A stretch of DNA of 63,864 bases, filler included, from Rhabdomonas costata (Eukaryota), in NCBI GenBank assembly GCA_019059605.1. It is 47 parts of 47 records of this genome, joined end to end, with 100 filler letters (N's around TTAATTAATTAA, not from the genome) between each part and the next. Parts side by side here need not be neighbours in the genome. Positions count along the whole stretch, not along the records: positions 5,450 to 6,710 come from JAHMHO010021519.1; 46 more parts are not named here. One strand, given 5' to 3'. A program made the position numbers and the translations under genes. Shown here in pieces: positions 3,275-46,016 of the stretch (positions are counted from its first letter, which is position 1; the number at the start of each line of letters is the position of its first letter). The notes under the pieces are model-generated. The model was not told where the DNA came from. It made no database searches and saw only the letters and a list, made by a program, of their open reading frames with translations.

Positions 3275-4572
3275 GGCCTTGATAAAGAAAAAAGTAAAGG
3301 AAAGTGGCCTTGAGAACCCATTAAACGGCACAAAAGCACACAAAACAGCATTTAAAGATCATAAAATCATTTCATTTTCATGGAATAATGCGTTTTGCGC
3401 TGCAGGCACAGTCCACACCGAGGTTACCAATTGAAATTGTCTTTCTGATGAAGATTTTTCCAAACTTCACGCCGATCTTGATGCATTTTCTGTCACCGGT
3501 CACCCAGACAACGTTTTCCAAAATACTTTGAACACAGCAAGGTTTTTACCCCCTCCCCCCCCAGGAATCAATGTTGAATTGCTTGGGAATAAAATTCAAC
3601 ATTGAAAATTGGGGGGGGGAGGGGGGTGTTCAATTCCATTATGGAAAACGTTGTCTGAAAATGACTTTTTCGCAACGGCGGATTCCCAACATCGAAAGTC
3701 ACATTTAAAACGCCCGAAAAAATGCATTGCATCAAGAGCCTTCGGCGTCGCTCCGCTCCGTGCTAATGCTACCATAATAGGGCAAGTCAAAGGTCAGAAT
3801 GGAGACAACACGATGATTTTTCAGTCCGGTTTGTCGTCTGAACCAACAGACAACATGATTTTCGGTTCGAAGAATACGGTAAAGATTTTGGCGGGTGGTA
3901 CAAACAGAAGCCCCAGAAAGCAGCAGTCATATATAATCAAGAGCAAGACTTTGCAGTTCAGTAAGAGCTGCGACCGCCTTTCATGNNNNNNNNNNNNNNN
4001 NNNNNNNNNNNNNNNNNNNNNNNNNNNNNTTAATTAATTAANNNNNNNNNNNNNNNNNNNNNNNNNNNNNNNNNNNNNNNNNNNNGTTGTGGCCCCTACT
4101 ATGCTGCCAAGGGTGAAAAAGCGGCCTTTTGAAACTCACAATATTGAAACATTAAGTGTCTTAAATTGTCAATATTATGTTTCCCGTGTGGTCAAGAAGC
4201 CAGGGCTCTATGGGATTGCGGCTGATTTTCTGGCTCAACACCGACCTTAAGTGGGAACGGGGGCCGGATAAATGGGGAACAAACAGGCCAAAAAACGGCA
4301 GTGGCGAAGGCGTCATTGTCAGTGGAACAGGATATTTTCAAACTCTTAATGCTTGTGTTTAGCGAAAATTAGCGAAACACTGCAAACGAGAACGCAATCC
4401 ACTATTTTTGAATGACTTCTTTTTTGAATCGAGGTTTACCATTACTTCAACGCACACTGCTCACTGCAGGTTGTGTGGTATTTTTAACACACTATGAAGC
4501 GCTATTGATGCTTCCATGTTTTACCTTCACGCCAGTGAAGCTAAATTTTGACGCAAGCGTGCCTTCACGCAG

Positions 4573-5281
4573 GCAACTTGAACAAGTACCTGTACGAGAC
4601 CGTGCCAGATCCACACATTTCCCTCACAGAGCTCGGCCAAGGTGTGCGCTTCATGGAATGTGAGTCCTGTCCCGTAAACGAATGTGCAATGGTTCCGAAA
4701 AAGCAAATGGGTTGCTTTCCTTATTCGATTTGAATTTCCTGCACGTACACCTTGGGATGGTTTGAAGGTTGGAGCCTTTTTCCCAAACTGGGATCTAAGA
4801 GCACCTTTTTCATGGTTGCACCCGAAAAACAATCAACTGCTAGAAGGATATTCGGTTTGATCCTTTTCGTTTGCAAAGCAGGTTATATGGGTTTGCAAAG
4901 GCATGGAAAGGGAGTTTTAAAGTTCAAGAGCGTTTGCTTGGAAGAGCTTATGGTACCGAAGATGCTTTTGCACTGATGATTGCACAACTCCCCTACACTA
5001 ATTTGTCCACTTGAAGTGCATGAATAAACCCTTAGCCGTTTCGCGTACCACAGCGGATTTTGGGTTGATGATGTGTTGTCGTTGTGTGTGTGTGTGTGTG
5101 TGCTTTGACGCGCCCCTCAGCGCAGGCGCTGGCCTGTGGGCGAAGACTGAAGGCGTTGGTGGGTGATCAACGGGTAGCCTTCTACGCGTCCCCGTTCCGG
5201 CGCACGCTGCAGACGCTGTGCGGTGTGAAGCAGGCGTTATGCCCGGACCAGATCGTCCGCGTGGATCGGGTGGATCCCAGG
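4573..5281 (+). CDS. Histidine phosphatase / phosphoglycerate-mutase family; exons 4573-4641 and 5121-5281
   Basis: The spliced product GNLNKYLYETVPDPHISLTELGQAQALACGRRLK..FYASPFRRTLQT..DPR carries the LT..G..QA and SP..R..QT motifs. The GT-AG intron is in phase. Confidence 0.88.
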
Positions 5282-5449
5282 GTGTGTGTGCCTGTGAAAG
5301 TCGAGGTGGTGGGTGGTAATAGTCGAGGTGGTGGGTGACACCACCCCCCNNNNNNNNNNNNNNNNNNNNNNNNNNNNNNNNNNNNNNNNNNNNTTAATTA
5401 ATTAANNNNNNNNNNNNNNNNNNNNNNNNNNNNNNNNNNNNNNNNNNNN

Positions 5450-5553
5450 GGTTGGTTGTCAAATCTCATGTATATGAAAAATAAATACTATCACACATTT
5501 TATACATTATGTTATGGTATTTATTTTTCATATACATGAGATTTGACAACCAA
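5450..5553. repeat. Terminal fold-back inverted repeat, probable amplification chimera
   Basis: About 37-bp perfect inverted arms at the contig start. Confidence 0.75.
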
Positions 5554-5579
5554 TGACATGTTAAATTTGTGTTGTAAAT

Positions 5580-5621
5580 AAATTAATTAATTTTTTCTAG
5601 TCATAAAAAATTAATTAATTT
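5580..5621 (-). terminator. AT-only hairpin (17-bp stem, 8-nt loop) directly after the nifS stop; candidate Mimiviridae-type 3'-end signal
   Basis: AAATTAATTAATTTTTT-ctagtcat-AAAAAATTAATTAATTT abuts the TAA at 5622-5624. Confidence 0.65.
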
Positions 5622-6710
5622 TTACATACTTTGTTGTAATATTTTTGTTAATGAAGCAATAAAATATTTACAATCTTCTAACGTTGTATAATCAGACATT
5701 GATATACGTATAATTTTATTCGAATAACTAGGATTAATTTTCATAGATGCTAATACATGTGATAAATTACCAGCATGACATGCACTACCAACTGAAACAT
5801 AAATATTATATTCACTTAATTTTGCAACTAAAGTTTTATTACACATTTTAAGATCTTCAAATATAATAGCTATTGTATTGTCCATAGAATTACGTTTATA
5901 AGGACCAACGATCAACACATTAAATTTATTTAATTCACGTAATAACCAAAATTTTAATTTACGAACTTTACAATTTTTTTTATCTCTGTCTATATGAACT
6001 TTCTCAAATGCTTTTGTTAATCCAGATATATAAGCAACATTTGGTGTTCCTGGACGTAATCCATTTTCTATCGAACCACCAAAACATAAACTTACAATAT
6101 GTACATTACTATCAATATACATGATACCAATTCCTTTAGGACCATGAAATTTATGAGCTGAAAAACTTAATGAACTAATATAATTAAGTTTAGGATATAT
6201 TATTTTTTTACCTATCGATTGTGTAACATCTGTATGAAATAAAATACCATGACGATGTGCAATTTGACCTATTTCATCTATTTTTTGCATGGATAATACT
6301 AATTAAAATAACTTTACTAGTTGGTTTTTGAATTGCTTGTTCGACATCAATTGGTCGTATACATCCATAATATGGATTTTGATCAGCTGGTAAATCAATA
6401 TTTGGATCAATCCAACTAACAGTAATACGATCTGGATTATTAGATTCATAATGTTTAAAAATATTAAGAACACTTGGATGTTCAAATGAAGATGTTATAA
6501 CTGTATATTTATCTGTTTTATTTTGAGATAAATAATAATTAATAACACCTTGAATAAAAATATTATTAGATTCAGTAGCACCAGATGTAAAATAAATTTC
6601 ATTTGGTAAAACTTTTAACATTTTAGAAATAACATGTCTACAGAACTCAATATGATTATGTGCTTTTAATCCAAAATTATGTAATATATTAGATGGATTT
6701 CCACAACACC
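5622..6710 (-). CDS. nifS: Cysteine desulfurase (NifS/IscS, PLP class V), 5'-partial, with a frameshifting deletion near 6285; AT-rich and intronless, possibly giant-virus-derived
   Basis: Motifs GNPS, FTSGATESNN, EHPSV, HTDVTQSIGK, SAHKFHGPKG (PLP Lys), RPGT and GSAC (catalytic Cys). Split across ORFs 6274-6621 and 5622-6290. Confidence 0.93.
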
Positions 6711-6899
6711 NNNNNNNNNNNNNNNNNNNNNNNNNNNNNNNNNNNNNNNNNNNNTTAATTAATTAANNNNNNNNNNNNNNNNNNNNNNNNNNNNNNNNNN
6801 NNNNNNNNNNGGGTTTGGGGTGGGCGAGCATCGAAACGTGGCTGTGCCGCTGCCTTTTTTTTTGCCGAATAAGTGAGAAGCAGGCTTGTGGGTGGCACA

Positions 6900-8071
6900 A
6901 TGGGCACGGACTCGGCTCCAAGCGGCGGCGCCTCCCTTGGAGTACAGCTGGCGAGCAGCGCGGTGAGCAGCGCAGCGGCAGGGATGCTGGGGCGGCTGCC
7001 ATGCCACCCCATGGACACGTGCAAGGCCAAGCTGCAAGCCTGGCGGGGCACGGACAGGCCCTCCCTGGGAGCCTTTGTGAGGCAGACCTGGGCTTCTGAG
7101 GGCCTGGGGGGCTTCTACCGCGGGTACGCAATGCGGGGGAAGTGGGAGGGGTTGGCAAAAATGCACATGAATGAAGAAACGATTGTTAAAGTGAACGTTA
7201 ATTCATGAATGGTGTCTCCAAGTCGGGTTCTTCGGTCCGCCGTAGAGTGCTGCTGTGCGGGTGTACATTCGAGGGTTGCGAGTCAAGAGGGAAATAAGAG
7301 TTTTCAGAGTTTTGTGCTGTGAGGGGACAGCCTCTCTCTTTCCGCTGACGGGGACAGAAAAGGCAGGACTGTATATAAAGTAGGGAATGAGAGGAGGAGG
7401 GCAAAAACCTCCATTGAATGCAACGCGCAAACTCGTGTGTCCTTGTTGCCGGGGGACAATGTCGCGATACAGTGAAGTGTGCCCCTTATGCTCTCCTCTA
7501 CCATTCACCCCCCCCCCCCAAAAGAACAATCCTGTTTTCTCGTAAGGGCTCTTGAAAAAGCTCCCCATATTGTGTGTCTGTGTGTTGCCTTCGTCCTCAC
7601 ATGGCAGGCTTCCGATTGCAGTGCTGGGTAGCGGTCCGGCAACCTGCCTTTACCTCTCTTCATACGAGCTAGCCAAGCGCGGGCTTGCTGGGATTCCTTA
7701 TCTCCGTGATAGCGCTGGTCTCACGCACTTCTTTGCGGTGTGTATACGTCAGTGGGTTGCTTCCACCTTTGCTGTGTGCCTTTCTAGTGATCACAGGGTC
7801 GAACTTGTATCTTATCTTTCTAGAGTTAGAAAATTTAAATATGTTGCGGGTGCTTTCGCAAACACGCAAGAAGTGGCGCAAAAGGGATAAAAAAGAGCCC
7901 CCAAGTGGCACCACTACCGGCCGAGGGTGAAAAGGTTAGAAAATTCTGACCTCAGATTGGCCACGCGACGTTTCGGGAGGCATGCTGTGTATACAAAATA
8001 CCCCATAAGTGTTCACTTTTGACGACCGTGATCGCTATTCCAGGGCTTTGCGGCGGAGGCAGCGAGTTGTG
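6900..8071 (+). CDS. Mitochondrial carrier (SLC25); exons 6900-7123, 7608-7737 and 8044-end
   Basis: Signature HPMDTCKAKLQ, then EGLGGFYRG|LPIAVLGSGPATCLYLSSYE..FFA|GFAAEAASC. Two in-phase GT-AG introns. Confidence 0.93.
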
Positions 8072-8455
8072 NNNNNNNNNNNNNNNNNNNNNNNNNNNNN
8101 NNNNNNNNNNNNNNNTTAATTAATTAANNNNNNNNNNNNNNNNNNNNNNNNNNNNNNNNNNNNNNNNNNNNGTGTTTTGTTTTGTGCCGGTTGCCTTTAG
8201 AAGTCGTTCTCCGAGGAGAGGACGCCTGAGGCTCTATGATCTCAGTATCCTTCACAAACAGGGACGAGGGGACGATGGAGTTTCTTATGGCCCAGCGCAT
8301 TGGTTTGGTTTGCGTGTCCGCGTCTGCGTGTCCGTGCTCAGGACACTTGAAAAATATAGTAACAAAAATGCACCCAGTGTTTGAATTGCCGTGGTTTCGT
8401 GGCATCTCATTCCTACTGCATCGAAAAACTGACCCCCTCCCCTGTCACCTTGTAG

Positions 8456-8586
8456 CGGCACTACATGTGTCCTTCGACTCAGATCTGGCGAGGGTTCTGA
8501 AGGAAGGCCGCGCTTTTCCTTTGAACGAGGATCTGGTGTCTCACCTCATCTATCAGCTCTTGGTTGGCCTTCATCACATGCACACC
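8456..8586 (+). CDS. Exon of a CMGC (MAPK-like) protein kinase, subdomains V-VIa
   Basis: FDSDLARVLK..LNEDLVSHLIYQLLVGLHHMHT, bounded by AG and GTATGC. Confidence 0.75.
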
Positions 8587-9877
8587 GTATGCCTTTCGTT
8601 TCGGGCGGTTTCGTTCTCTCCATCTCTCCCTTTCTGCCCAGTCGAAATCGAATGAAACGGTATGAAAAGAATCAGCTCCCCTGCCTCTGACTAGGTTTGC
8701 CACTAGGGTGACATGGGCATTTGCCTCGACGTGCATAACAAACCATGACAGAAATTGTAGAATGTGGAGTGTATGGTGTAGGTGAGGGGGCACCTGTTCA
8801 ACCTGGTACCCGTTCACCTGAGGCCTGCCTTTGCAACTGGTGGACTTGCAGGGTGATGGAGGGCGATGCAAGATGCCGGAGAATGTGAGCTGAAGCTTCG
8901 AAACGTCTTGGCAGGCGAAGCACTGTTCAGCACGGAGTTGATTAGAGTTGTAGGTTATACGGGCGATGTATGGTCCGAGTGTTACGGACGATGGTGAAAT
9001 ATTCGCCAAGTGAATTATGCGGTGCCCTCCCCCCCTTCCACTGAAATAGACGGCCTCCAACGGGAGGTGGGAGCCCCCTGTGGGGGGAGCCCCTCCCCCG
9101 CATCTGCAGAGTCTATCTAACCAAATGGACCTAAATAACACGTGATGTCTCAAGAAGCCTCAAGAAGCCTCAAGAAGTTTTTGTCGCGTAGGTTTCTTCA
9201 GGGCCCACAGCAACGTTGGAAAAGACCACCAAGACCAAGGGCTATTTTGGACTCACAAGAAAACATGTTGCGCTTGATTAATGTCCTGTCCTGTCTTACG
9301 ATCGCTGATAAGGGCATAGGAACACACACACCCTTTGATTTGTGTGTAGTTCTGCACCCGAACTGAATCCCCCCGCATGCTAAGCACAACGGTTCTCTTT
9401 GTATCACTGTCGCCTCCTCCCTCCCCCCACAANNNNNNNNNNNNNNNNNNNNNNNNNNNNNNNNNNNNNNNNNNNNTTAATTAATTAANNNNNNNNNNNN
9501 NNNNNNNNNNNNNNNNNNNNNNNNNNNNNNNNCCCCCCCCCCAACTTCCATTGCACCCAAAATGAGTTACCGGGGTTGCGGTAGGCAGAGATTGAAACAT
9601 TGCCTAGTGCTTTTAGCCGGCTTTTCAACCTTCAAACGGATTTTGAATGCTTTTAGCCAATCAAGAGACGTGATCTGGGAAATGATGTTTCCAATCCAGT
9701 TGTGATCGGGATTCGATGGTTGGTGGGCAGATCTCTTGCCGAATGATCCCTTCGAGCTTTCCGGCGAAGCTTGGTGTGATTCAGATTCTTTAAATGGCAT
9801 TACGTACTGCAATCCCATCATTTGTGTATGTGTGTATTTGTTTGAGCATGCTCATAGCATATTTTTGTACGGCTTAG

Positions 9878-32510: not shown

Positions 32511-32805
32511 CTGTGAGCGAAGAGATGGACATGAAGGGCTGAGTTGGCTTTGCTCCCCCCCCCACAANNNNNNNNNNNNNNNNNNNNNNNNNNNNNNNNN
32601 NNNNNNNNNNNTTAATTAATTAANNNNNNNNNNNNNNNNNNNNNNNNNNNNNNNNNNNNNNNNNNNNGTGGTGTGTTGGACTCAGACCCACCCGTTCGAC
32701 CCGGCCGAACGGGTGGGTCTGAGTCCAGCACACCTCCGGCAAAGACGTTCAAATAAAATCACATCATTTGGGACACGTGTATCACTTCCTTGTTTGATCT
32801 TGCAG

Positions 32806-33445
32806 GGGATTCAGGTCAACTCGGGGGCATGCGTAAACTTCGCTTGGCGGTGCTTCTGCCTTCGCAGTGAAGAATTGCAGTCAGCCGCGACACAACTGCC
32901 TTTTTTTTGGGGGGGGGGGTCAGATCTGCGTTGCCACCCCGTGCTGCTTTTTCGACGTCGCGGTTCTGGACCACATCACAACATCGTGCACGCGGATCTC
33001 CTTCGTTGTTCTGGATGAGGTCGACCGCATGCTGGAGATTGGCTTTGAGGAGCAGGTCACTTTTCTTTCCTTTTCCCATTCGTTCGGTTTTGTTCGGTTT
33101 TGAAATCAATAGCAGCTGGCAATGGAACAGGGCGGCGGGGCATGACCATAAAGGTGGTAAACTTTTCCTGACGTCAGCCGACGCCTGTTCACGTCACGTT
33201 TAAGTTCCTTAGAATGTCATTCATATAAATCAACGTACCAAGTTTAATCAGAAGTTTGGAGAAGTTCAGTGAAGTGGCCGCGAATGTGGTTGAAACAGAT
33301 GTGTGTGTGAACTGCTTGTGCTTGAAAGGTGAGGGCGATCCTGGCTCAAATCCGACGCGACCGCCAGCTCGCCCTGACCAGCGCGACCTGCCCCCCTGCG
33401 GTGCAGAAGCTGCTGCGGGACTTCCTCCCCAATGGCTATGCACAG
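32806..33445 (+). CDS. DEAD-box RNA helicase; exons 32806-32814 (microexon), 32924-33055 and 33329-33445
   Basis: GIQ|ICVATP..ISFVVLDEVDRMLEIGFEEQ|VRAILAQIRRDRQLALTSAT (motifs Ic, II, III). Confidence 0.9.
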
Positions 33446-33702
33446 GTCTCACTCTCTTTTTCTATCTCTGCTGCTTGCGCCGCATGGCCTTGCCCTTACT
33501 CTTCTCGCTCTTCTCTTTGACATTATTCTGAACCTTTTTGTTTTGGACGCCCCCGCTTCAAGTCAAGGGCTACATGATGACTTTGGCGCTGCAATGAATT
33601 CTTCAACAAGAAGGGCCAAGACGTCAAACTCGCTGTGGATACACACTCACCCAAACTTGAGCAAGACTTCCATTTTGCACAACCATTTGAATTGTCAATT
33701 TG

Positions 33703-33770
33703 CAAAAAAAAAAAAAAAAGAGAGAGAGAGAGAGACAGAAGAAGAAGAAGAAGAAGAAGAAGAAGAAAGA
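33703..33770. repeat. Compound A-run / (GA)n / (GAA)n microsatellite
   Basis: Seen directly. Confidence 0.95.
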
Positions 33771-35548
33771 AACCAGTAGAAATATCGGTTTACACACATT
33801 TCTGTGATCTGGATCAATAACAATGAAACGTGCTCGCAGAAAGATATTGTTTTAACATTGGTTCTCGAAACTGATGCTTCTACCCATGCAGATTGTCATC
33901 AGTTTCGAGAACCAATGTTAAAACAACCNNNNNNNNNNNNNNNNNNNNNNNNNNNNNNNNNNNNNNNNNNNNTTAATTAATTAANNNNNNNNNNNNNNNN
34001 NNNNNNNNNNNNNNNNNNNNNNNNNNNNTTTTTTTTTTAATTGGGACCTGTGTGCTTATGTCATTGTGCACTTCTCACTGGCCGGTGATGCTATTCCCGA
34101 GCTTCCCCATGCCCCTCACCACGTCCACAAGCACGCACGCGCACACGCACTCACCGCTTCCGTTGTGTACCTCCCTTTTGGGAGCAAGCCCACTGCCCCA
34201 GGAGGAGCGAAGCTTTGCCTTCCCTTTTTGGCCTGGTAAGGAAAGTTTATGGTATGCAAGGGTTGCCTTGGGCTGCTTCTACCATAGCCTTCCCCCATTC
34301 GTGGCCCTCAGCATACTGTCCTGCATAGTCTCAAGCAGTTGCCCAACCTTACCAAAACAATAGCTCGTGCGGAGCTCGAATGATGCCTTTCTCGTCATCT
34401 TCGTGCCTGCGAGTTGTCGCTTCCCTTTGTGCTCTTTTCTTCGCGCAGGCCCCCTCCCCTAGCCCAGCGTGAGCGCTCCTGGGCCTCTGCCTGTGAGACC
34501 TTTGTGATTGTGTTTTCCGTGTTTGTGTTTATCATTCCATATCATTTTTTCTCGCAATTATCGTGGTATGGTATCATGGTGACGGCTCTTCCTTTGGTTG
34601 TCATTGGTCACCTTTTCCTGACTTTCGTGCAGAACTCAGTGGTCTGCCGTTAAACCATTATGGTATGGACAATCGCCCATCTGGGTTCCTGCACTGTTAC
34701 AATCGTGTTTTGTAGCGTTCCTAACGTGAAGTGCGCGAAGTACCGTCAAGAATGTCTGCATTCCGAACTGCTGTAGTTCCGCCCTGACCTCCCGCATGGT
34801 TTGTGCCAAGCTTTCCCCTCCGCAGTCCTTACCAGCTGAAGCTGCGATTCAATGCAGAGCATCCTGTAATTTTGCTGCGTGCTGCTGATGCTGATGACGA
34901 TGTTTTCATTGCCCTTCTGCTGCGTACAAACGTTGCTTCTGAGCGAGGTTGCGAATTATTTCAGTGTCCTTTGATGGTCTTTCTTGTCACTCTTTCCTTT
35001 TGTATTATGTTTTTTTACGTTTTCAGTTGTGGCAATGCATTTTGTTCTGGTCCCAACATTTGCAGGCACTACCCTTTTCCATCCGGGGAGGGTGTTACAC
35101 CTTCGGATTGAGCATTGCCATCAGGTTGACCATTCCAGTGAAGTGGCTGTGATTTCCTCGGCCGCCCCCTTCCCCAGACTCAGTGCAAATTCCACTCTGC
35201 GCAAATATTCCTCTGCTCCCGACCACATCCGATCTGAATGATAAACCTAAGCGCTGGAGCGAGGCTGTAATATAGGGGGGGGGTTAACCNNNNNNNNNNN
35301 NNNNNNNNNNNNNNNNNNNNNNNNNNNNNNNNNTTAATTAATTAANNNNNNNNNNNNNNNNNNNNNNNNNNNNNNNNNNNNNNNNNNNNGGGTGTTGGTC
35401 CCTGACCCGAATCTTCGGGCAGAGCAAAAATCATCTTTCGTACCACCATGTGTGTGATCTACTCGAGCTTGATTGGGTGGTGAGCTGTGTCGTATTGATT
35501 GATTGAGCAGAAGTGATGTCATGAAAAGGCGCACCCCCAGAGCAAAGC

Positions 35549-39633: not shown

Positions 39634-42600
39634 GTACGATTGTGCTTCTGCTGAGCGCGGGCTTGCGCCCCCCCCCCCCGTGCGGTGCCCTGTATTATCT
39701 CCTTTATCTCATTGCTGAGTGCTTGGGAGTGTGCAGGAATGCAAATTGCAAAAATGTGTGACATGATTTTCACCTCCTTCCCCTTTGTGGACCTCTTATC
39801 ACTGGATGTTTTGAAGAAGTTTGGGAATTGAAAAAGACCGCCCTTGTCTTGAGTTTTTGTATCCGCCGCCTATATGTTAACACTACGTTCATGAGACTGG
39901 TGTGAGGGGGTGTGAATAGGAAGGCACAAGTACCTCCACACCTGGAACGTCACTGCCCCTGGACTGCTGCAAAAAAAAAAACGCTGGGCTTCCCGAGCCA
40001 GGGCCGGTCTCTTTTTGCAATTGCAAAAAATTGCAAAAATTGTAAAACCATCTGGATTATGCAAAAAAAAAAAAATAGCAAAAAAAATTTTCGGGTCCAG
40101 CTGTGTCCCAATCTTCAAGGCAAGTGAGGGTGGCATGCAGTGCCAAGCCTATCAAGTTCCCATGCGACATCTTCCAATAATTGCAAAGAATCGTACAACC
40201 CAGCGTGAAGAATACGACTCTCAAAGCGTTTTCTCTCGCAGTGACATCCTTGCGTGTTTTTATATAGCTGCGTCGCAGCCGTCGTGCTTCTCTTTATCTT
40301 CGGAGTCGCGTTTCTATTCTCGTATATGCGGTCGTGGGGCAGGGCTCGGCCACGAAGAGGGGTCGTCCATCCACCTCTGGAGGGGCCCCCTGTCCTGCCC
40401 TCAGATAGCTTGGAGTATTTCCAGGCATCCAACCACCCGTCCTTCCGCTTGCCTTTTTCTTTTGCCCGTTTGCTCTTGCCCCCCCTCCCTTCCGGATTTC
40501 TGTGTGTGCTTTTGAAATTTGCCTGCACACCAACACCATCGGGTTCCCTTTTCACGGGGTATGCTGATAATTTCTTTAAATTTCGTTTCTTGCGATCCAC
40601 GAATATGTCTTGTCTTGTGTGTCTGGTGACCAGCCTCCATTCTTGGTATTTAACAATATTACATCTGCACATTATAACCTCCTGTGCACAATATATGACC
40701 TTCGTGCCGTGATAGACACAAACCCNNNNNNNNNNNNNNNNNNNNNNNNNNNNNNNNNNNNNNNNNNNNTTAATTAATTAANNNNNNNNNNNNNNNNNNN
40801 NNNNNNNNNNNNNNNNNNNNNNNNNGTTGGGGGTTGGGATGCCCCGCACTCGGGCCGTCCTGGGCGCTGCAGGGGCGGACCTCACTCTTCCCGTATGCGA
40901 GAAAGAAGAAGAACGGAAGAAAACAGCAAGTAATGAGCAATGATCACATAGTTAAGTGGAGCATGCGAAATCAGAAATCGGACTCGTTGTGCGATACATT
41001 CACGAGTGCGCGGTAGGTGAATGAGCAGGGAGTGCCAAACTTCGCATAGGGTAGTTGTTGAAACTGCGCCAAGGGGGACTCAGATATATAGGGCGACTCA
41101 GAGGGAGTTGCCAGCAGCGATAAGTTCAAGGGAATTTCAAAGGTCGCTTTGTTTCGCTCCTTTCGGATCCCTTTGGGGTTCTGTTTCTTCTTTATTCCAT
41201 CTCTCCCCTTCATCGCTCTGTCAGTCAATTTGCAAATGGAATTTCGCTTCCCTCCCCTTCAATCGTTCCCTCTCCCGTTGCATAGTGGACATAGTGGGGC
41301 TAGACACTGGAAGCGGGCCATCCCCCCATGCGTGTAAGGTTGTATGCGCACTGTTGCATGTTGTGGATTTGTACGGATGTGGTTTCACTGGAGCGGATGA
41401 TGTTGCACACCACCCCAGCTGGGATTGGGCAGTGGGTCGGCGGTCGTCAGCAAGTTATGGGTTGTCCATGCTCCCACCGCATTCTCTGTCGGCGACTGGC
41501 GTGTTTTGGTCGCAGATCCCGACTTATCCCAGAGCCAGAGCACCGACTGTAGCATTGACTCTTTCGTCTTTAAAGATAAAGTGCGGGATACAGGCTGTAT
41601 AATTTAGAGGATTTCGGTTTTCTCAGAAGGCTTGCACACCACTCCAGGAGAACAGTAAACAAGTTTAGGGGGCGACAGTAGGGGATGGGTAGTTGCTTTT
41701 CGAATATCCTGAAGCTCTCATAAGCAAATAAGGCATTCCTGTAGGATCGTCTGGATAGACAGTTTTCCAGAGACTTAGAACGTGGCGCCGCCCTTTATCC
41801 TCCTTTCGATTTTTGTTAATTTGTGTATTTTTCCTTCTTTTGCCCTGACCAAATTTTAAGATATTCCCGCTGCAGGTAGGATCAGTCGTGGGCCTCCGAG
41901 GTCTCTTCTAGTCACGCTGGACCCACCGGTCGGTCCCGCGCCCACGTTTAAGTCTTCTCTATAACGGTTCGCTAACGGTCCGCAAAGTCTCCTTTCTTTT
42001 CCCCTCGCATGTAGGGGGCCGCAAATTCCAGTGATCCATAACTCCGCCCCCTTCCACAGGTGCATATACGCATAACACCCAACCCCNNNNNNNNNNNNNN
42101 NNNNNNNNNNNNNNNNNNNNNNNNNNNNNNTTAATTAATTAANNNNNNNNNNNNNNNNNNNNNNNNNNNNNNNNNNNNNNNNNNNNGTGTGGGTGTGTTT
42201 GGGTGTGTGTGGAGTTATCTCTCAATTAGGAGTTGAATCGTGGGCGGCGGAACGTTAGCCACCTTCTTATTGATTCCCAGACGAGCGTTGCGCTTCCGGT
42301 GCTCATGTGCTCATAGTGAGACGGCGTTTTGTCTTTGCTTTTTTCTTACCGACAAAGAATTTCTTTTCAGCAATCTTTTCTGCATTTTCACTTCATTCAG
42401 GTCCGCGGACCCCATGGAGTGGACGAAACCCCCTGCAAGCACGGCGGACGAAGTTGAAGCGTTTTCCCTGTTGTCTTTTGATGGGTTTGATAGTCCCAAG
42501 GGAAGGGAACGCAAATCCTTCAGGAGTCGATTTGCAAGCAGCATGATGTGTGGTGTACCCGTGCTCGCGCCATGATACTGAGAACGTCAGCTCTTTGAGT

Positions 42601-43551
42601 GGAGAGCCAAAAGGCTTCTTGGGGCCCGCAAGGAAAAACGAAACAGCAACGAGAAGTAAAAGAAGAACGGATGGGAAGAAGCAACGATATGTGAAACATC
42701 GCGAAAACCGGAGAAATGTAGGGGCGAGAGAACCTGCAGCCCCTTGGAAGAGATCTTGAGGGCCTCGGAGAAGGTCTTCGCGAGCTCCCCGGTAGAGCCC
42801 GGACCGGAAGGCAAGGGCCGCACCACACTCAGGGACCGGCCTAGAGCGCGCAGCAGCTCCGCCCGCAGGGGACCCTACAGAAGTGAAAAAACAACAGATG
42901 AACCAAAACAAGACTCAAAGAAACAGAGCTTCTTTATGGTCGTCGCACCGCGGCCACCTTAGGTAGAACAGGAGCAGTTGTGTGTTGGGCAGCGTCCCAC
43001 AATGTCCCACACACCGCAAGAAGTCGCTGTCCAGCAGCAGCAACCACACAAGTGTATTCAAAGTCTTATTTTGCAGCGCCACAGACACAGAACCATGCGT
43101 TTCGCCTATGGCACCGTAGTGGTGCCGTGCAGCGCATTGTTTCACAGCATGTGTCAGGGAGAAGAAGACAACCCTTTCGAAAGATCAAAGGCTCCGCTTT
43201 GGAGCATTCTCAACTCCCCGAAGGGAGGTTCTTACGGATGATATATGTTAAAGCGGTTGCGGCTCCTCCGGAAACAACCCTTTCACCTCCAAAAAAGCAG
43301 TCACTGCAGCTGGGGCATTTTACTTGATTGGCGAAAAAATAGGCAACTAGTAATTTAGTATTTTGGCGATACTTGTCGTTTACAAATCTGAACAGCAGCA
43401 CTCCTGCAAGGCGACCTAATGACAGGTTTGTAAACGACAAGTATCGNNNNNNNNNNNNNNNNNNNNNNNNNNNNNNNNNNNNNNNNNNNNTTAATTAATT
43501 AANNNNNNNNNNNNNNNNNNNNNNNNNNNNNNNNNNNNNNNNNNNNGGTGG

Positions 43552-43731
43552 TGGTGAAGACGATGTTATGTAATTTTTATGCTCCAGAAAGCGCTTCTCT
43601 TGGCCGCCTGTGTTTTTTTTCCAAACAACCACAGCCTCCTGGTAGAATTGGCGGCCCTTTGGAAAAAAAACACAGGCGGCCAAGAGAAGCGCTTTCTGGA
43701 GCATAAAAATTACATAACATCGTCTTCACCA
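43552..43731. repeat. Terminal fold-back inverted repeat (about 74-bp arms), probable chimera
   Basis: Perfect inverted arms at the contig start. Confidence 0.8.
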
Positions 43732-46016
43732 CAGCATGTTGCCGCAGAATAGGGACCGCAGAGACCTGGAAACAGCAACGGACAGTTTCACCAGGGAATG
43801 CGGAAGAGACAAACAGACAGAAGTGCAAAAAGCGGGAAAGCATTGACATGGTGGCTTCAGCATTCGGCCATCAAGGAGCAGTTCCCTCAGCCCCATACAC
43901 ACGTTTCGACCTCTGTGTGTATGTACATCTGGCGTCAGCATACTTCCGCGTTTTCCGCGACCCTCCTTTATGTCTGTTTTCGTAATGCATCGCGATCGTG
44001 ACCAAAAGAAAGAGCTCTTCCTGGTTGCCTTGCATTTGCGTAAAACTTTTCTGCAAGGGATGTGTCTGTACTTACCCTCCAAAAACAGTCCCAGTTTCTC
44101 ATACTGTGATGTATTAGCCCGAAATGCTTTTCTCGATCCCCCCGCTCCCTTAAAGTCTCCCAGCGAAGCAGTCTGCTGAAAGGCTGCTTGTCATTCGCCC
44201 TTTCCGCGCGGCTACGCCAGCCCCGAGTTAGAGCCAACATTGACACCTCCGTTGGAAATCCAAGTTACTGTTTCTTTGAGAAGCGATATTTTCTCTCATT
44301 CCGCACACCTCGAGAAGGGCCTTCAGAGCAAGCATCGTGTTGTCCGGTACTCCTTTCCCGCTAATAGGCCCCAGGTAGTCGTCAACCAGCACGCAATTCT
44401 CTTCATGACCTTGCAAGGGAAGGGAAGTTCACCGCAAAATCTCCCAAATACCAAGCTGCCCTTGTGGGCTTGGGCCCTCAATCCCACTGGGCTTGGAACT
44501 GCTTTCCTAGAGGGCGGGGTTGGTTGCCTTGCACTGTCCATAATGTCATCTTAATCTCAATTCTCTCTCCACTCCGCTTGCCCGGGCTTCTCTTGTAGTC
44601 TGTTTTTTTTCTGGTTTTTGGGCCGTCTCGCTGCCATTCTCTCCTTGTCTCGAGCTGAACCGTGCTGCTCCTGTCAAGCGGTAATTTTTCCGCCGCTCAC
44701 TCGCCACTTCTGGGGGGCTCCTTTTCTCGCCAGATCCACCCACGTCACACAGGCACACGCACACAGACACACGCGCACACACAACCCCAAACACACAACC
44801 AAAAAANNNNNNNNNNNNNNNNNNNNNNNNNNNNNNNNNNNNNNNNNNNNTTAATTAATTAANNNNNNNNNNNNNNNNNNNNNNNNNNNNNNNNNNNNNN
44901 NNNNNNACGGCCAGAGAAGGGAGCGAAAAGGCACTTCCGTTGTCTTGACGAGACTCGATGAGGACCCATGGGGCAGGTGTCTCCCGAAGCACAGCCACGG
45001 GGAGAACATCACGACGCAACGACGGAGTTACACTTGAATGCCAAAAGGATGACTTTCTCGCGGGCCCAGCGGCCACCCAGGGAACAGCCGCCCGACTGAA
45101 TGGAAGAAGCAAGGTTGCAAAAAAGAGCAGAAGCCAGCGAGTCGAATTGTTAATCACTTTTTTAATTTCCATGTGGTGCAGGTGTGAAATCCTTTACATA
45201 ACGAAAATGTGCCTTCGCTGTCACACACGGATGATATTTTCCAGGGTCTTAGAACCTCATTGGATCGCAGTTGCAGAAAACCCGCCCGCCATCAAGCTCC
45301 CGCACGAGACAAAATGAGTAAAACAACCTCGTTCGGCCGATTGCACCACGGACGTTACCATAATGCGAACAAAAACAGCATCGCTTCGTCGATTCTTTTG
45401 ACCGCACTTTTTGGTGGCGAAAGATAGTGGACAGTTACCCTAAAGATCAAAAACGGCATGCACATCAGGGGGGGGGCACCGTAGCGGGCGGCACTTTGCC
45501 CCAGGGACCGGGCAGGGTCTCATGCATGCTGGCAGGCAACTCTCTGGTGGACCTGGCTCAGCAACCACCGCCACCGCCAGGTCCGGCTTATCCTGCTCAC
45601 GGGCAGGATGCACTCCGATGATGGCCTCGGTTTCTTCACAGTCCTCCCGATCACACAGCAGGGCCACCGGGCTGGGGGCGCAGCGCAAGGCGGGAAGGGG
45701 GCACCCCCGGAGGCCAGCAAGGGCCCTCGAGGGCGCAAGGAACGAGACAGGGGGTGTGAAAACGGCCCTGGCGGGCAGCCAACTCGGGGCAAGGTCGGTG
45801 GTGAGATCCGGGTTGAGGGGTGACTTGGAATGATTGGGATGATCAGGAGAGCCGGATGGAGGGGACAGTTGTTTAGGACGCCTGCACAAAAGAAACCCCC
45901 CAAAAGACACAGTTTTCTTTGTGGAAGTACAGTGGAAGCCACTTCTGGTTCCGCTGTGCACTTTTCTTCCTCTTTGCTTAATGGGGCTTCTTTTTTTCTT
46001 CCTTTTTTGGAGCTCG

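What the first reader, a model, noticed from the sequence alone, without database searches (positions are those of the whole stretch)
5450..6710. Foreign AT-rich contig with NifS: candidate giant virus (Imitervirales/Klosneuvirinae-like) associated with this cell
Seen: GC is about half that of neighbouring contigs by eye. There are no introns, the protein is Asn/Ile/Lys-rich, the C-terminus is short (NifS-type), and there is an unusual insert (DPNIDLPADQNPYYG). An AT-only hairpin lies at the stop. Inference: a large DNA virus infecting, ingested by or integrated in the host and carrying a sulfur-mobilising auxiliary gene. An AT-rich bacterial symbiont is the alternative.
Basis: partly seen in the sequence, partly recalled or inferred. 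Interest (0 to 1): 0.75.

Follow-up and report, generated by a model that had tools for sequence, protein, structure and literature searches.

The report
Giant-virus-type NifS gene fragment, broken
One short, very AT-rich contig in this eukaryote-like assembly carries most of a cysteine desulfurase gene whose closest relatives sit on giant-virus contigs, but the copy is broken and too short to show how it relates to the cell.

Summary
The window is 47 unrelated contigs of about 1.26 kb. Contig 5450-6710 has 24.8% GC, against 46-59% for the other 46.

On its minus strand lies a group-I (NifS/IscS-type) cysteine desulfurase gene (Pfam PF00266).
- The gene is cut at its 5' end by the contig end.
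- It is split into two frames near 6288. Compared with 21 of 21 close relatives, 23 nt are missing, including the invariant NNE.G motif.

In two trees the protein falls in a well-supported clade (UFBoot 100 / SH-aLRT 97). This clade holds all nine AT-rich IMG/VR loci (L002-L010) and no named bacterium. Those loci carry giant-virus genes beside the homologue, namely a P8 minor capsid protein and a D5/AEP primase. Their two bins hold MCP, VLTF3 and a MutS_V protein.

Giant-virus origin is supported. Imitervirales is plausible and Klosneuvirinae is not shown. Whether the virus infects the cell, was ingested by it or is integrated in it cannot be told. Verdict: a new member of a known kind, of modest interest.

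The parts
5450..6710 (.). Whole AT-rich contig (1261 bp, GC 24.8%), bounded by spacers on both sides
6277..6708 (-). N-terminal part of the cysteine desulfurase gene (frame A, 144 codons). It is open at the contig end and runs into a TGA at 6276-6274. It matches PF00266 profile positions 28-123.
6364..6408 (-). Insert DPNIDLPADQNPYYG, a longer version of the insert typical of the clade. EH-to-NNE spacing is 66 here, 59-75 in 19 of 19 clade members, and below 58 in 208 of 216 other hits (51 in 163 of them).
6280..6291 (-). Break point. The His codon is at 6291-6289 in frame A and the Gln codon at 6287-6285 in frame B. 23 nt are missing relative to 21 of 21 clade members, including the invariant NNE.G motif, and the frame shifts by +1.
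5625..6290 (-). C-terminal part (frame B, 222 codons from the ATG at 6290; the frame is open from 6302). It matches PF00266 profile positions 155-371 and carries FHTDVTQ (6219-6239), the PLP-lysine motif SAHKFHG (6141-6161), LRPGT (6045-6059) and the catalytic-cysteine loop GSACHAG (5769-5789).
5622..5624 (-). TAA stop codon
5580..5621 (-). AT-only hairpin directly after the stop: 17-nt arms, 100% complementary, 8-nt loop
5452..5553 (.). Fold-back palindrome reaching the contig end: 51-nt arms, 90% complementary, outer 37 nt perfect. Probably an assembly or amplification artefact, because 3 other contigs of the window end the same way.

Best explanation
The contig is a fragment of DNA from an uncultivated giant virus (Nucleocytoviricota, most likely Imitervirales-like) that was sampled together with the GC-rich, eukaryote-like DNA of this assembly.

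It carries about 93% of a stand-alone group-I (NifS-type) cysteine desulfurase gene. The gene belongs to a clade so far seen only on giant-virus and unnamed metagenome contigs.

Inferred from the family, not shown here: an intact enzyme of this kind uses PLP bound to the lysine of SxHK to take sulfur from L-cysteine. It holds the sulfur as a persulfide on the loop cysteine (GSAC) and passes it to acceptors for Fe-S clusters or thiolated tRNA.

The copy in this assembly lacks 23 nt, including the invariant NNE.G motif, and changes frame. As assembled it cannot make a full enzyme. The lesion is either very recent or an amplification or assembly artefact.

The AT-only hairpin at the stop fits the hairpin type of transcript end described for Mimiviridae.
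For: Family:
- PF00266 matches both parts.
- The best NCBIfam model is TIGR03402 FeS_nifS.
- The best solved relative is 1ECX/1EG5, deposited as 'aminotransferase', at E 1.2e-31.
- The C-part keeps 14 of 14 invariant columns of a 44-row alignment.

Clade:
- The best hits are 44-53% identical and unnamed, at E 1e-50 to 1e-60. The bacterial mass lies near 1e-30.
- Quick tree, 94 rows: a 20-row clade with SH-aLRT 98.
- Careful tree, 53 rows: a 19-row clade with 100/97.
- Both clades hold all 9 IMG/VR loci L002-L010 and none of the 8 named bacteria.
- The shared insert gives support that does not depend on composition.

Relatives are giant viruses:
- On L005 (a 404-kb contig) the homologue lies next to a P8 minor capsid protein and an RFC-like protein.
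- On L009 it shares the contig with a D5/AEP_C962R primase, an EsV-1-7 repeat protein and a pox-type kinase.
- Bins G001 (753 kb) and G002 (423 kb) hold Capsid_NCLDV, VLTF3 and MutS_V, each in 2 of 2.
- GC of L001-L009 is 25-32%.

Prokaryotes: the best 80 loci from 185,579 species genomes are at most 38% identical to P0001. They score at most 137 bits (C-part) and 86 bits (N-part) with the window, against 164-188 and 100-147 bits for 9 of 10 viral loci.

Open frames of 226 and 144 codons have chance probabilities of 3e-10 and 9e-7 at this composition.

Hairpin: with passages of PMC4402537 read.
Against: - The contig holds only this one gene. No viral hallmark gene is linked to it, and the rest of the assembly could not be searched.
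- All clade members other than the IMG/VR loci are unnamed metagenome proteins. A cellular AT-rich source for some of them is not excluded.
- AT-rich proteins can attract each other in trees. 13 rows and 5 rows have odd letter make-up.
- The order-level assignment rests on relatives that are only 40-53% identical. It also rests on bins, on one named primase hit among 120 and on none among 34 RFC hits.
- A significant hairpin after the homologue's stop was found in only 2 of 9 viral loci. AAAATTGA was found upstream in 0 of 9.
- The gene is broken, so no function of this copy is shown.
Confidence: 0.75

Rival explanations
1. Endogenous giant-virus element: the fragment is integrated in the eukaryote's nuclear genome and the desulfurase gene is a decaying pseudogene.
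For: The gene carries a frame-breaking 23-nt loss that removes an invariant motif. It is 1 of 47 contigs in an otherwise GC-rich, eukaryote-like set, in which 0 of the 10 longest ORFs of other contigs match Pfam.
Against: There is no host-virus junction on the contig. GC3 of 4-9% and two long open frames (P 3e-10 and 9e-7) show almost no decay besides the one lesion. The assembly has fold-back artefacts at 4 of 94 contig ends, so the lesion may be artificial.
Confidence: 0.17
2. AT-rich bacterial symbiont or contaminant carrying its own NifS.
For: NifS-type desulfurases are mainly bacterial. The ESM Atlas nearest clusters are bacterial (Mycoplasmatota, Bacillota). The best solved relative, 1ECX, I recall to be the Thermotoga maritima NifS-like protein.
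Against: None of the 8 named bacteria joins the clade. Prokaryote genome matches are weaker than viral loci. The clade-specific insert is present. The terminator-like hairpin is AT-only, not G+C-rich.
Confidence: 0.05
3. A second, AT-rich eukaryote (prey, parasite or contaminant) that owns a gene of this clade, the giant viruses having taken the gene from such hosts or given it to them.
For: P0124 is identical to the L009 product. Of the 3 that I looked up (P0001, P0002, P0121), none has a name or accession. The window's tree neighbour P0002 lies on a 1.5-kb contig with no context.
Against: The gene has no introns. It is far from mitochondrial NFS1 (69 bits, against 113 bits for 1ECX). Every clade member that has context (9 of 9 loci) lies on a giant-virus-like contig.
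Confidence: 0.03

Closest known systems
NifS-type homologues on IMG/VR giant-virus contigs (L002-L010, including GVMAG-S-1004661-13, GVMAG-M-3300009169-13 and GVMAG-M-3300022916-4) and unnamed metagenome proteins P0001-P0003, P0005 and P0121
   Same: Same clade in both trees. Same insert between the EH and NNE motifs. Same short C-terminus. Similar GC of 25-32% in L001-L009.
   Different: At most 53% identical. The window's insert is 3 residues longer than P0001's. The window copy lacks NNE.G and is frameshifted, while 21 of 21 relatives are intact there.
NifS-like protein of PDB 1ECX/1EG5 (deposited name 'aminotransferase'; Thermotoga maritima by recall) and other group-I desulfurases (IscS 1P3W, Helicobacter 5WT2)
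   Same: PLP fold type I, the HxDxxQ and SxHK motifs and the GSAC cysteine loop. E 1.2e-31 over C-part residues 5-222. The AlphaFold model of the C-part has pLDDT 88.
   Different: About 35-40% identity, no clade insert, cellular origin. The NCBIfam equivalog cut-offs are not reached, even by the intact relative P0001 (285 bits against 530.75).
NifS-like genes of Asfarviridae (ASFV, Faustovirus, Pacmanvirus; 21 of 35 asfarvirus MAGs): PMC8005611, passages read
   Same: A giant virus carrying a cysteine desulfurase homologue. This shows that the kind is already known.
   Different: The ASFV NifS-like protein aligns to the model at 19% identity. The MCPs of the relatives' bins match PBCV-1 capsid chains and give no hit to an ASFV capsid chain.
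NifS-like proteins of named Klosneuvirinae-type metagenomic viruses (Edafosvirus 975 aa, Barrevirus 265 aa) and of Heterosigma akashiwo virus 01
   Same: Annotated as NifS-like and structurally matched (Foldseek probability 1.00).
   Different: Only 22%, 15% and 17% identity, and different lengths or fusions, so they give no sign of closeness to the window's clade.
Mimiviridae 'hairpin rule' for transcript 3' ends (PMC4402537, passages read; Byrne et al. 2009 is cited there and was not read)
   Same: An AT-rich palindrome forming a 17-bp hairpin directly after the stop codon.
   Different: Not specific: the paper says Pithovirus obeys the rule too. Only 2 of 9 homologue loci show a significant hairpin by my perfect-stem test. 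No RNA data.

Membership tests
Group-I cysteine desulfurase (NifS/IscS type, Pfam Aminotran_5) | Match to PF00266 above the gathering score | tested here: met
   N-part 41.1 bits and C-part 99.2 bits, against a cut-off of 21.5
Group-I cysteine desulfurase (NifS/IscS type, Pfam Aminotran_5) | PLP-binding lysine in SxHK, HxDxxQ, and the catalytic cysteine in a GSAC loop (the roles of these motifs are recalled; their conservation was tested) | tested here: met
   FHTDVTQ, SAHKFHG and GSACHAG are present. 14 of 14 invariant columns of alignment A3 are kept.
Group-I cysteine desulfurase (NifS/IscS type, Pfam Aminotran_5) | Conserved NNE.G motif and one uninterrupted reading frame | tested here: not met
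   The motif is present in 21 of 21 clade members and in 234 of 240 full-length hits (as N[NS]E.G). It is absent here, with a +1 frame change.
NifS equivalog (NCBIfam TIGR03402) | Score above the curated cut-off of 530.75 bits | tested here: not met
   C-part 160.5 bits, N-part 67 bits, intact relative P0001 285.4 bits. It is the best-matching model but below the cut-off.
Nucleocytoviricota genome fragment | Hallmark genes (MCP, PolB, A32, VLTF3) on the same contig or on co-binned contigs | not testable with these tools
   The contig holds one gene only. No whole genome is held.
Nucleocytoviricota genome fragment | The gene nests among homologues physically linked to NCLDV genes | tested here: met
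   Trees. P8 minor capsid next to the homologue on L005. D5/AEP primase on L009. MCP and VLTF3 in 2 of 2 bins.
Imitervirales | Relatives show order-typical markers (a MutS7-like protein and a Mimiviridae-like D5 primase; that these are typical of the order is recalled) | tested here: inconclusive
   MutS_V protein of 943-995 aa in 2 of 2 bins. The primase's only named hit among 120 is Megavirus courdo11, at 33%. 0 of 34 RFC hits are named. The PDB holds no closer MCP than PBCV-1.
Imitervirales | Hairpin at the transcript end and the AAAATTGA early promoter | tested here: inconclusive
   The hairpin is present. The promoter region lies off the contig. AAAATTGA was found upstream in 0 of 9 relatives.
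Klosneuvirinae | Closeness to NifS-like proteins of named klosneuviruses | tested here: not met
   Edafosvirus 22% and Barrevirus 15% identity in BFVD
Asfarviridae NifS-like | Closeness to the ASFV NifS-like protein, and an asfarvirus-type capsid in relatives | tested here: not met
   19% identity. The MCPs of the bins match PBCV-1 chains only.

The most novel reading that the evidence does not exclude
The contig is the trace of an uncultivated Imitervirales-like virus that really infects this eukaryote or has endogenised in it. It would then give a first host link for a virus-specific clade of stand-alone NifS-type desulfurases. That clade works without a viral NifU scaffold (0 of 2 bins have NifU_N), has no named member, and was not found described for Mimiviridae in my two literature searches.
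Probability: 0.2. Interest if true: 0.55.

Novelty: new member of a known kind. Interest (0 to 1): 0.35.

Why it matters
Giant-virus DNA in eukaryote assemblies can reveal virus-host pairs for lineages known only from metagenomes. Sulfur-mobilising genes in such viruses bear on how they reshape host Fe-S and tRNA-thiolation metabolism.

Here the evidence supports the viral origin of the gene. It does not support a host link or a working gene. The practical value is as a flag to bin and screen the low-GC contigs of this assembly.

Tried and rejected
- Whole-genome binning: not possible, because no genome is held.
- Earlier findings: nothing by place, sequence or words.
- Rfam on the whole window: 0 matches.
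- Closer relatives in JGI metagenome contigs, searched with the C-part: 135 pattern matches, none a relative.
- ESM Atlas: only generic bacterial Aminotran_5 clusters.
- Names for clade and sister proteins: 0 of 10 clusters carry an organism name.
- GVMAG ids in the literature: 0 papers.
- Viral hairpin telomere as a reading of the terminal palindrome: rejected as the leading reading. Three GC-rich contigs of the window also end in fold-backs, with exact arms of 20, 30 and at least 60 nt, so 4 of 94 ends in all.
- Hairpin after the stop as a clade-wide trait: only 2 of 9 loci reach 5 or fewer of 100 shuffles.
- Asfarvirus and klosneuvirus affinity: rejected.
- NifU partner: 0 of 2 bins.

Full report
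**What the window is.** The 63,864 bases are 47 separate contigs of 1254-1278 bp, joined by N44 + TTAATTAATTAA + N44 spacers. The neighbours of the finding are therefore unrelated pieces of one fragmented assembly, not genomic context.
- Contig 5450-6710 has 24.8% GC. The other 46 have mean 51.8%, sd 2.9 and range 46.1-59.4, which puts it 9.4 sd below them.
- The ten longest stop-to-stop frames on other contigs give 0 Pfam matches.
- Rfam finds nothing in the window.
- The rest of the window looks like sparsely coding, eukaryote-type DNA. I did not identify the organism.

**The gene.** On the minus strand two frames match Aminotran_5 (PF00266). Frame A (6708-6277) covers profile positions 28-123. 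Frame B (6302-5625, ATG at 6290) covers positions 155-371.
- The first roughly 27 codons lie beyond the contig end (alignment).
- The best NCBIfam model is TIGR03402 FeS_nifS, ahead of DndA, IscS and SufS. All are far below the equivalog cut-offs, and this also holds for the intact relative P0001 (285 bits against 530.75).
- The best solved relative is 1ECX/1EG5 (E 1.2e-31). Mitochondrial NFS1 chains score 69 bits.
- The C-part keeps all 14 invariant columns of a 44-row alignment. These include the HxDxxQ motif, the SxHK lysine and the GSAC cysteine.
- An AlphaFold model of the C-part is confident, with pLDDT 88.2.
- At this base composition a stop is expected every 11 codons or so. Open frames of 226 and 144 codons have chance probabilities of 3e-10 and 9e-7.

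Frame A reads ...ISIIHAKNR and then a stop. Frame B starts within the same bases and reads MQKIDEIGQ....
- In 21 of 21 clade members the stretch from the His to the Ile-Gly of this region is 16 residues long and holds NNE.G. In the window it is 25 nt instead of 48.
- So 23 nt are missing, the invariant motif is gone, and the frame moves by +1.
- N[NS]E.G is present in 234 of 240 full-length hits.
- As assembled, the gene cannot give a complete enzyme.
- Both halves are otherwise clean, so the lesion is either very recent or not real.
- The second possibility has a basis. Four of 94 contig ends in this window carry an exact fold-back arm of at least 20 nt within 5 nt of the end: 37 nt here, and 30, 20 and at least 60 nt on three GC-rich contigs. 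This points to chimeric molecules or an assembler artefact in this data set.
- Reads could not be consulted.

**Relatives.** A search of 5.8 billion proteins with the C-part gave three unnamed proteins at E 1e-50 to 1e-60 (44-50% identity). These are followed by P0004 and P0005 at E 3e-36 and 7e-35, and then by a continuous bacterial mass from about 1e-32.
- The HMMER scan of 1.84 billion representatives gave the same picture. 29 proteins reach E 1e-30 or better, and the best is at 50% identity.
- In IMG/VR, nine distinct contigs (L002-L010; L001 is the same contig as L002) encode relatives that are 45-55% identical to P0001. To the window's two parts they are 38-53% identical.
- GC is 25-32% in L001-L009 and 41% in L010.

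**Trees.** I built trees from a hand-picked 94 of the roughly 343 sequences in hand. The window's two parts were joined by X at the break.
- Quick tree (LG+C20 PMSF): the window sits in a 20-row clade with SH-aLRT 98.
- Careful tree on 53 of those rows (LG+G4): it sits in a 19-row clade with UFBoot 100 and SH-aLRT 97.
- Both clades hold all nine IMG/VR loci and only unnamed metagenome proteins. None of the eight named bacteria is inside.
- Its pairing with P0002 is weak (93/54).
- Caveat: 13 rows in the first tree and 5 rows in the second have unusual letter make-up. AT-driven attraction cannot be excluded from the trees alone.

**The insert as independent evidence.** The spacing from the EH motif to the NNE position is as follows:

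| Group | EH-to-NNE spacing |
|---|---|
| Window | 66 |
| Clade members (19 of 19) | 59-75 |
| Six sister proteins | 50-58 |
| Other hits | 51 in 163 of 216; below 58 in 208 of 216 |

**Prokaryote genomes.** One scan of 185,579 prokaryote species genomes kept the best 80 loci.
- All 80 are at most 38% identical to P0001.
- With the window they score at most 137 bits (C-part) and 86 bits (N-part). Nine of ten viral loci score 164-188 and 100-147 bits.

**Are the relatives really giant viruses?**
- On L005, part of a 404-kb contig, the homologue lies directly beside a P8-type minor capsid protein (PF19065, E 5e-33) and near an RFC-like protein. By ORF sizes and order, the same arrangement appears to recur in L004-L008. 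Pfam was run only on L005.
- On L009 it shares the contig with a D5-type primase-helicase (AEP_C962R, D5_N, PriCT_2), an EsV-1-7 repeat protein and a pox-type kinase.
- Only two of the five records I asked for were held: bins G001 (753 kb) and G002 (423 kb). Both contain Capsid_NCLDV and VLTF3 (2 of 2 each), one Aminotran_5 gene each and no NifU_N (0 of 2).

**Which lineage?**
- The bins' MCPs match PBCV-1 capsid chains best and give no hit to an asfarvirus capsid. The Asfarviridae, where NifS genes are already described (PMC8005611, passages read), are therefore not the home of this clade.
- Both bins carry a MutS_V protein of 943-995 aa. By recall, this is typical of Mimiviridae-type viruses.
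- The L009 primase has one named relative among the 120 hits listed, Megavirus courdo11 at 33%.
- The L005 RFC-like protein has none among 34.
- Foldseek of the model against BFVD finds named viral NifS-like proteins only at low identity: Edafosvirus 22%, Barrevirus 15%, Heterosigma akashiwo virus 17%, ASFV 19%. The best hit is unnamed, at 30%.
- Imitervirales is therefore plausible for the clade. Klosneuvirinae is not shown. The window's own virus is known only through one gene that is at most 53% identical to anything.

**The 3' end.**
- Directly after the TAA stop lies an AT-only hairpin. Its arms (5580-5596 and 5605-5621) are 17 nt, perfectly complementary, with an 8-nt loop, and 0 of 100 shuffles match it.
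- The 191-nt 3' region folds with z = -13. Most of that energy comes from the terminal fold-back at 5452-5553, which I regard as an artefact.
- The hairpin fits the palindrome-type transcript ends of Mimiviridae (PMC4402537, passages read). That paper notes the same for Pithovirus, so the feature is not diagnostic.
- Among the nine homologue loci only L003 and L006 show a comparable hairpin.

**How it most likely works.**
- Inferred from the family: an intact member removes sulfur from cysteine with PLP and carries it as a persulfide on the loop cysteine. It then hands the sulfur to Fe-S scaffold proteins or tRNA-thiolation enzymes.
- The two bins lack a NifU-type scaffold. A viral enzyme would have to feed host acceptors or other viral proteins. 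This is inference and nothing here tests it.
- For this copy, shown: the catalytic residues of the C-terminal half are present, the NNE.G segment is absent, and the frame is broken.

**Verdict.**
- The giant-virus reading is supported by phylogeny, by the shared insert and by the context of the relatives. Bacterial and eukaryotic origins are unlikely.
- The order is plausible and the subfamily is unsupported. The physical relation to the cell is untestable here.
- Cysteine desulfurase genes in giant viruses are already in print, and members of this very clade already sit in IMG/VR. This is a new, divergent member of a known kind.

Noticed in passing
window 32668-33928 (right end), 42187-43446 (right end), 43547-44806 (left end): Three GC-rich contigs end in exact fold-back inverted repeats (arms of 30, 20 and at least 60 nt) that start within 5 nt of the contig end, like the AT-rich contig. 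This suggests chimeric or fold-back artefacts in this assembly.
   Followed up: partly
whole window: The window is a concatenation of 47 equal-length contigs with stop-in-all-frames spacers. The 10 longest ORFs of the other contigs have no Pfam match, and Rfam finds nothing.
   Followed up: partly
L001 19507-21150 (-) and 1352-5992 (-): The giant-virus MAG contig with the closest IMG/VR homologue also encodes an XRN-type 5'-3' exonuclease (XRN_N E 5e-48) and a 1546-aa DEAD-type helicase.
   Followed up: no
L010 13089-13757 (-): A 223-aa ORF near the homologue on a 231-kb viral contig gives a weak Bac_rhodopsin match below the cut-off (E 0.001, 19 bits). It may be a viral rhodopsin or chance.
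   Followed up: no
L009 4990-6543 (+): A 518-aa protein made of at least 8 EsV-1-7 cysteine-rich repeats (E 3.5e-94) lies between the D5 primase and the NifS homologue.
   Followed up: no
L004-L008, about 3800-9200: By ORF sizes and order, the arrangement RFC-like protein, ~570-aa unknown, ~195-aa P8-type minor capsid protein (opposite strand), NifS homologue looks the same across five viral contigs. Pfam was run only on L005.
   Followed up: partly
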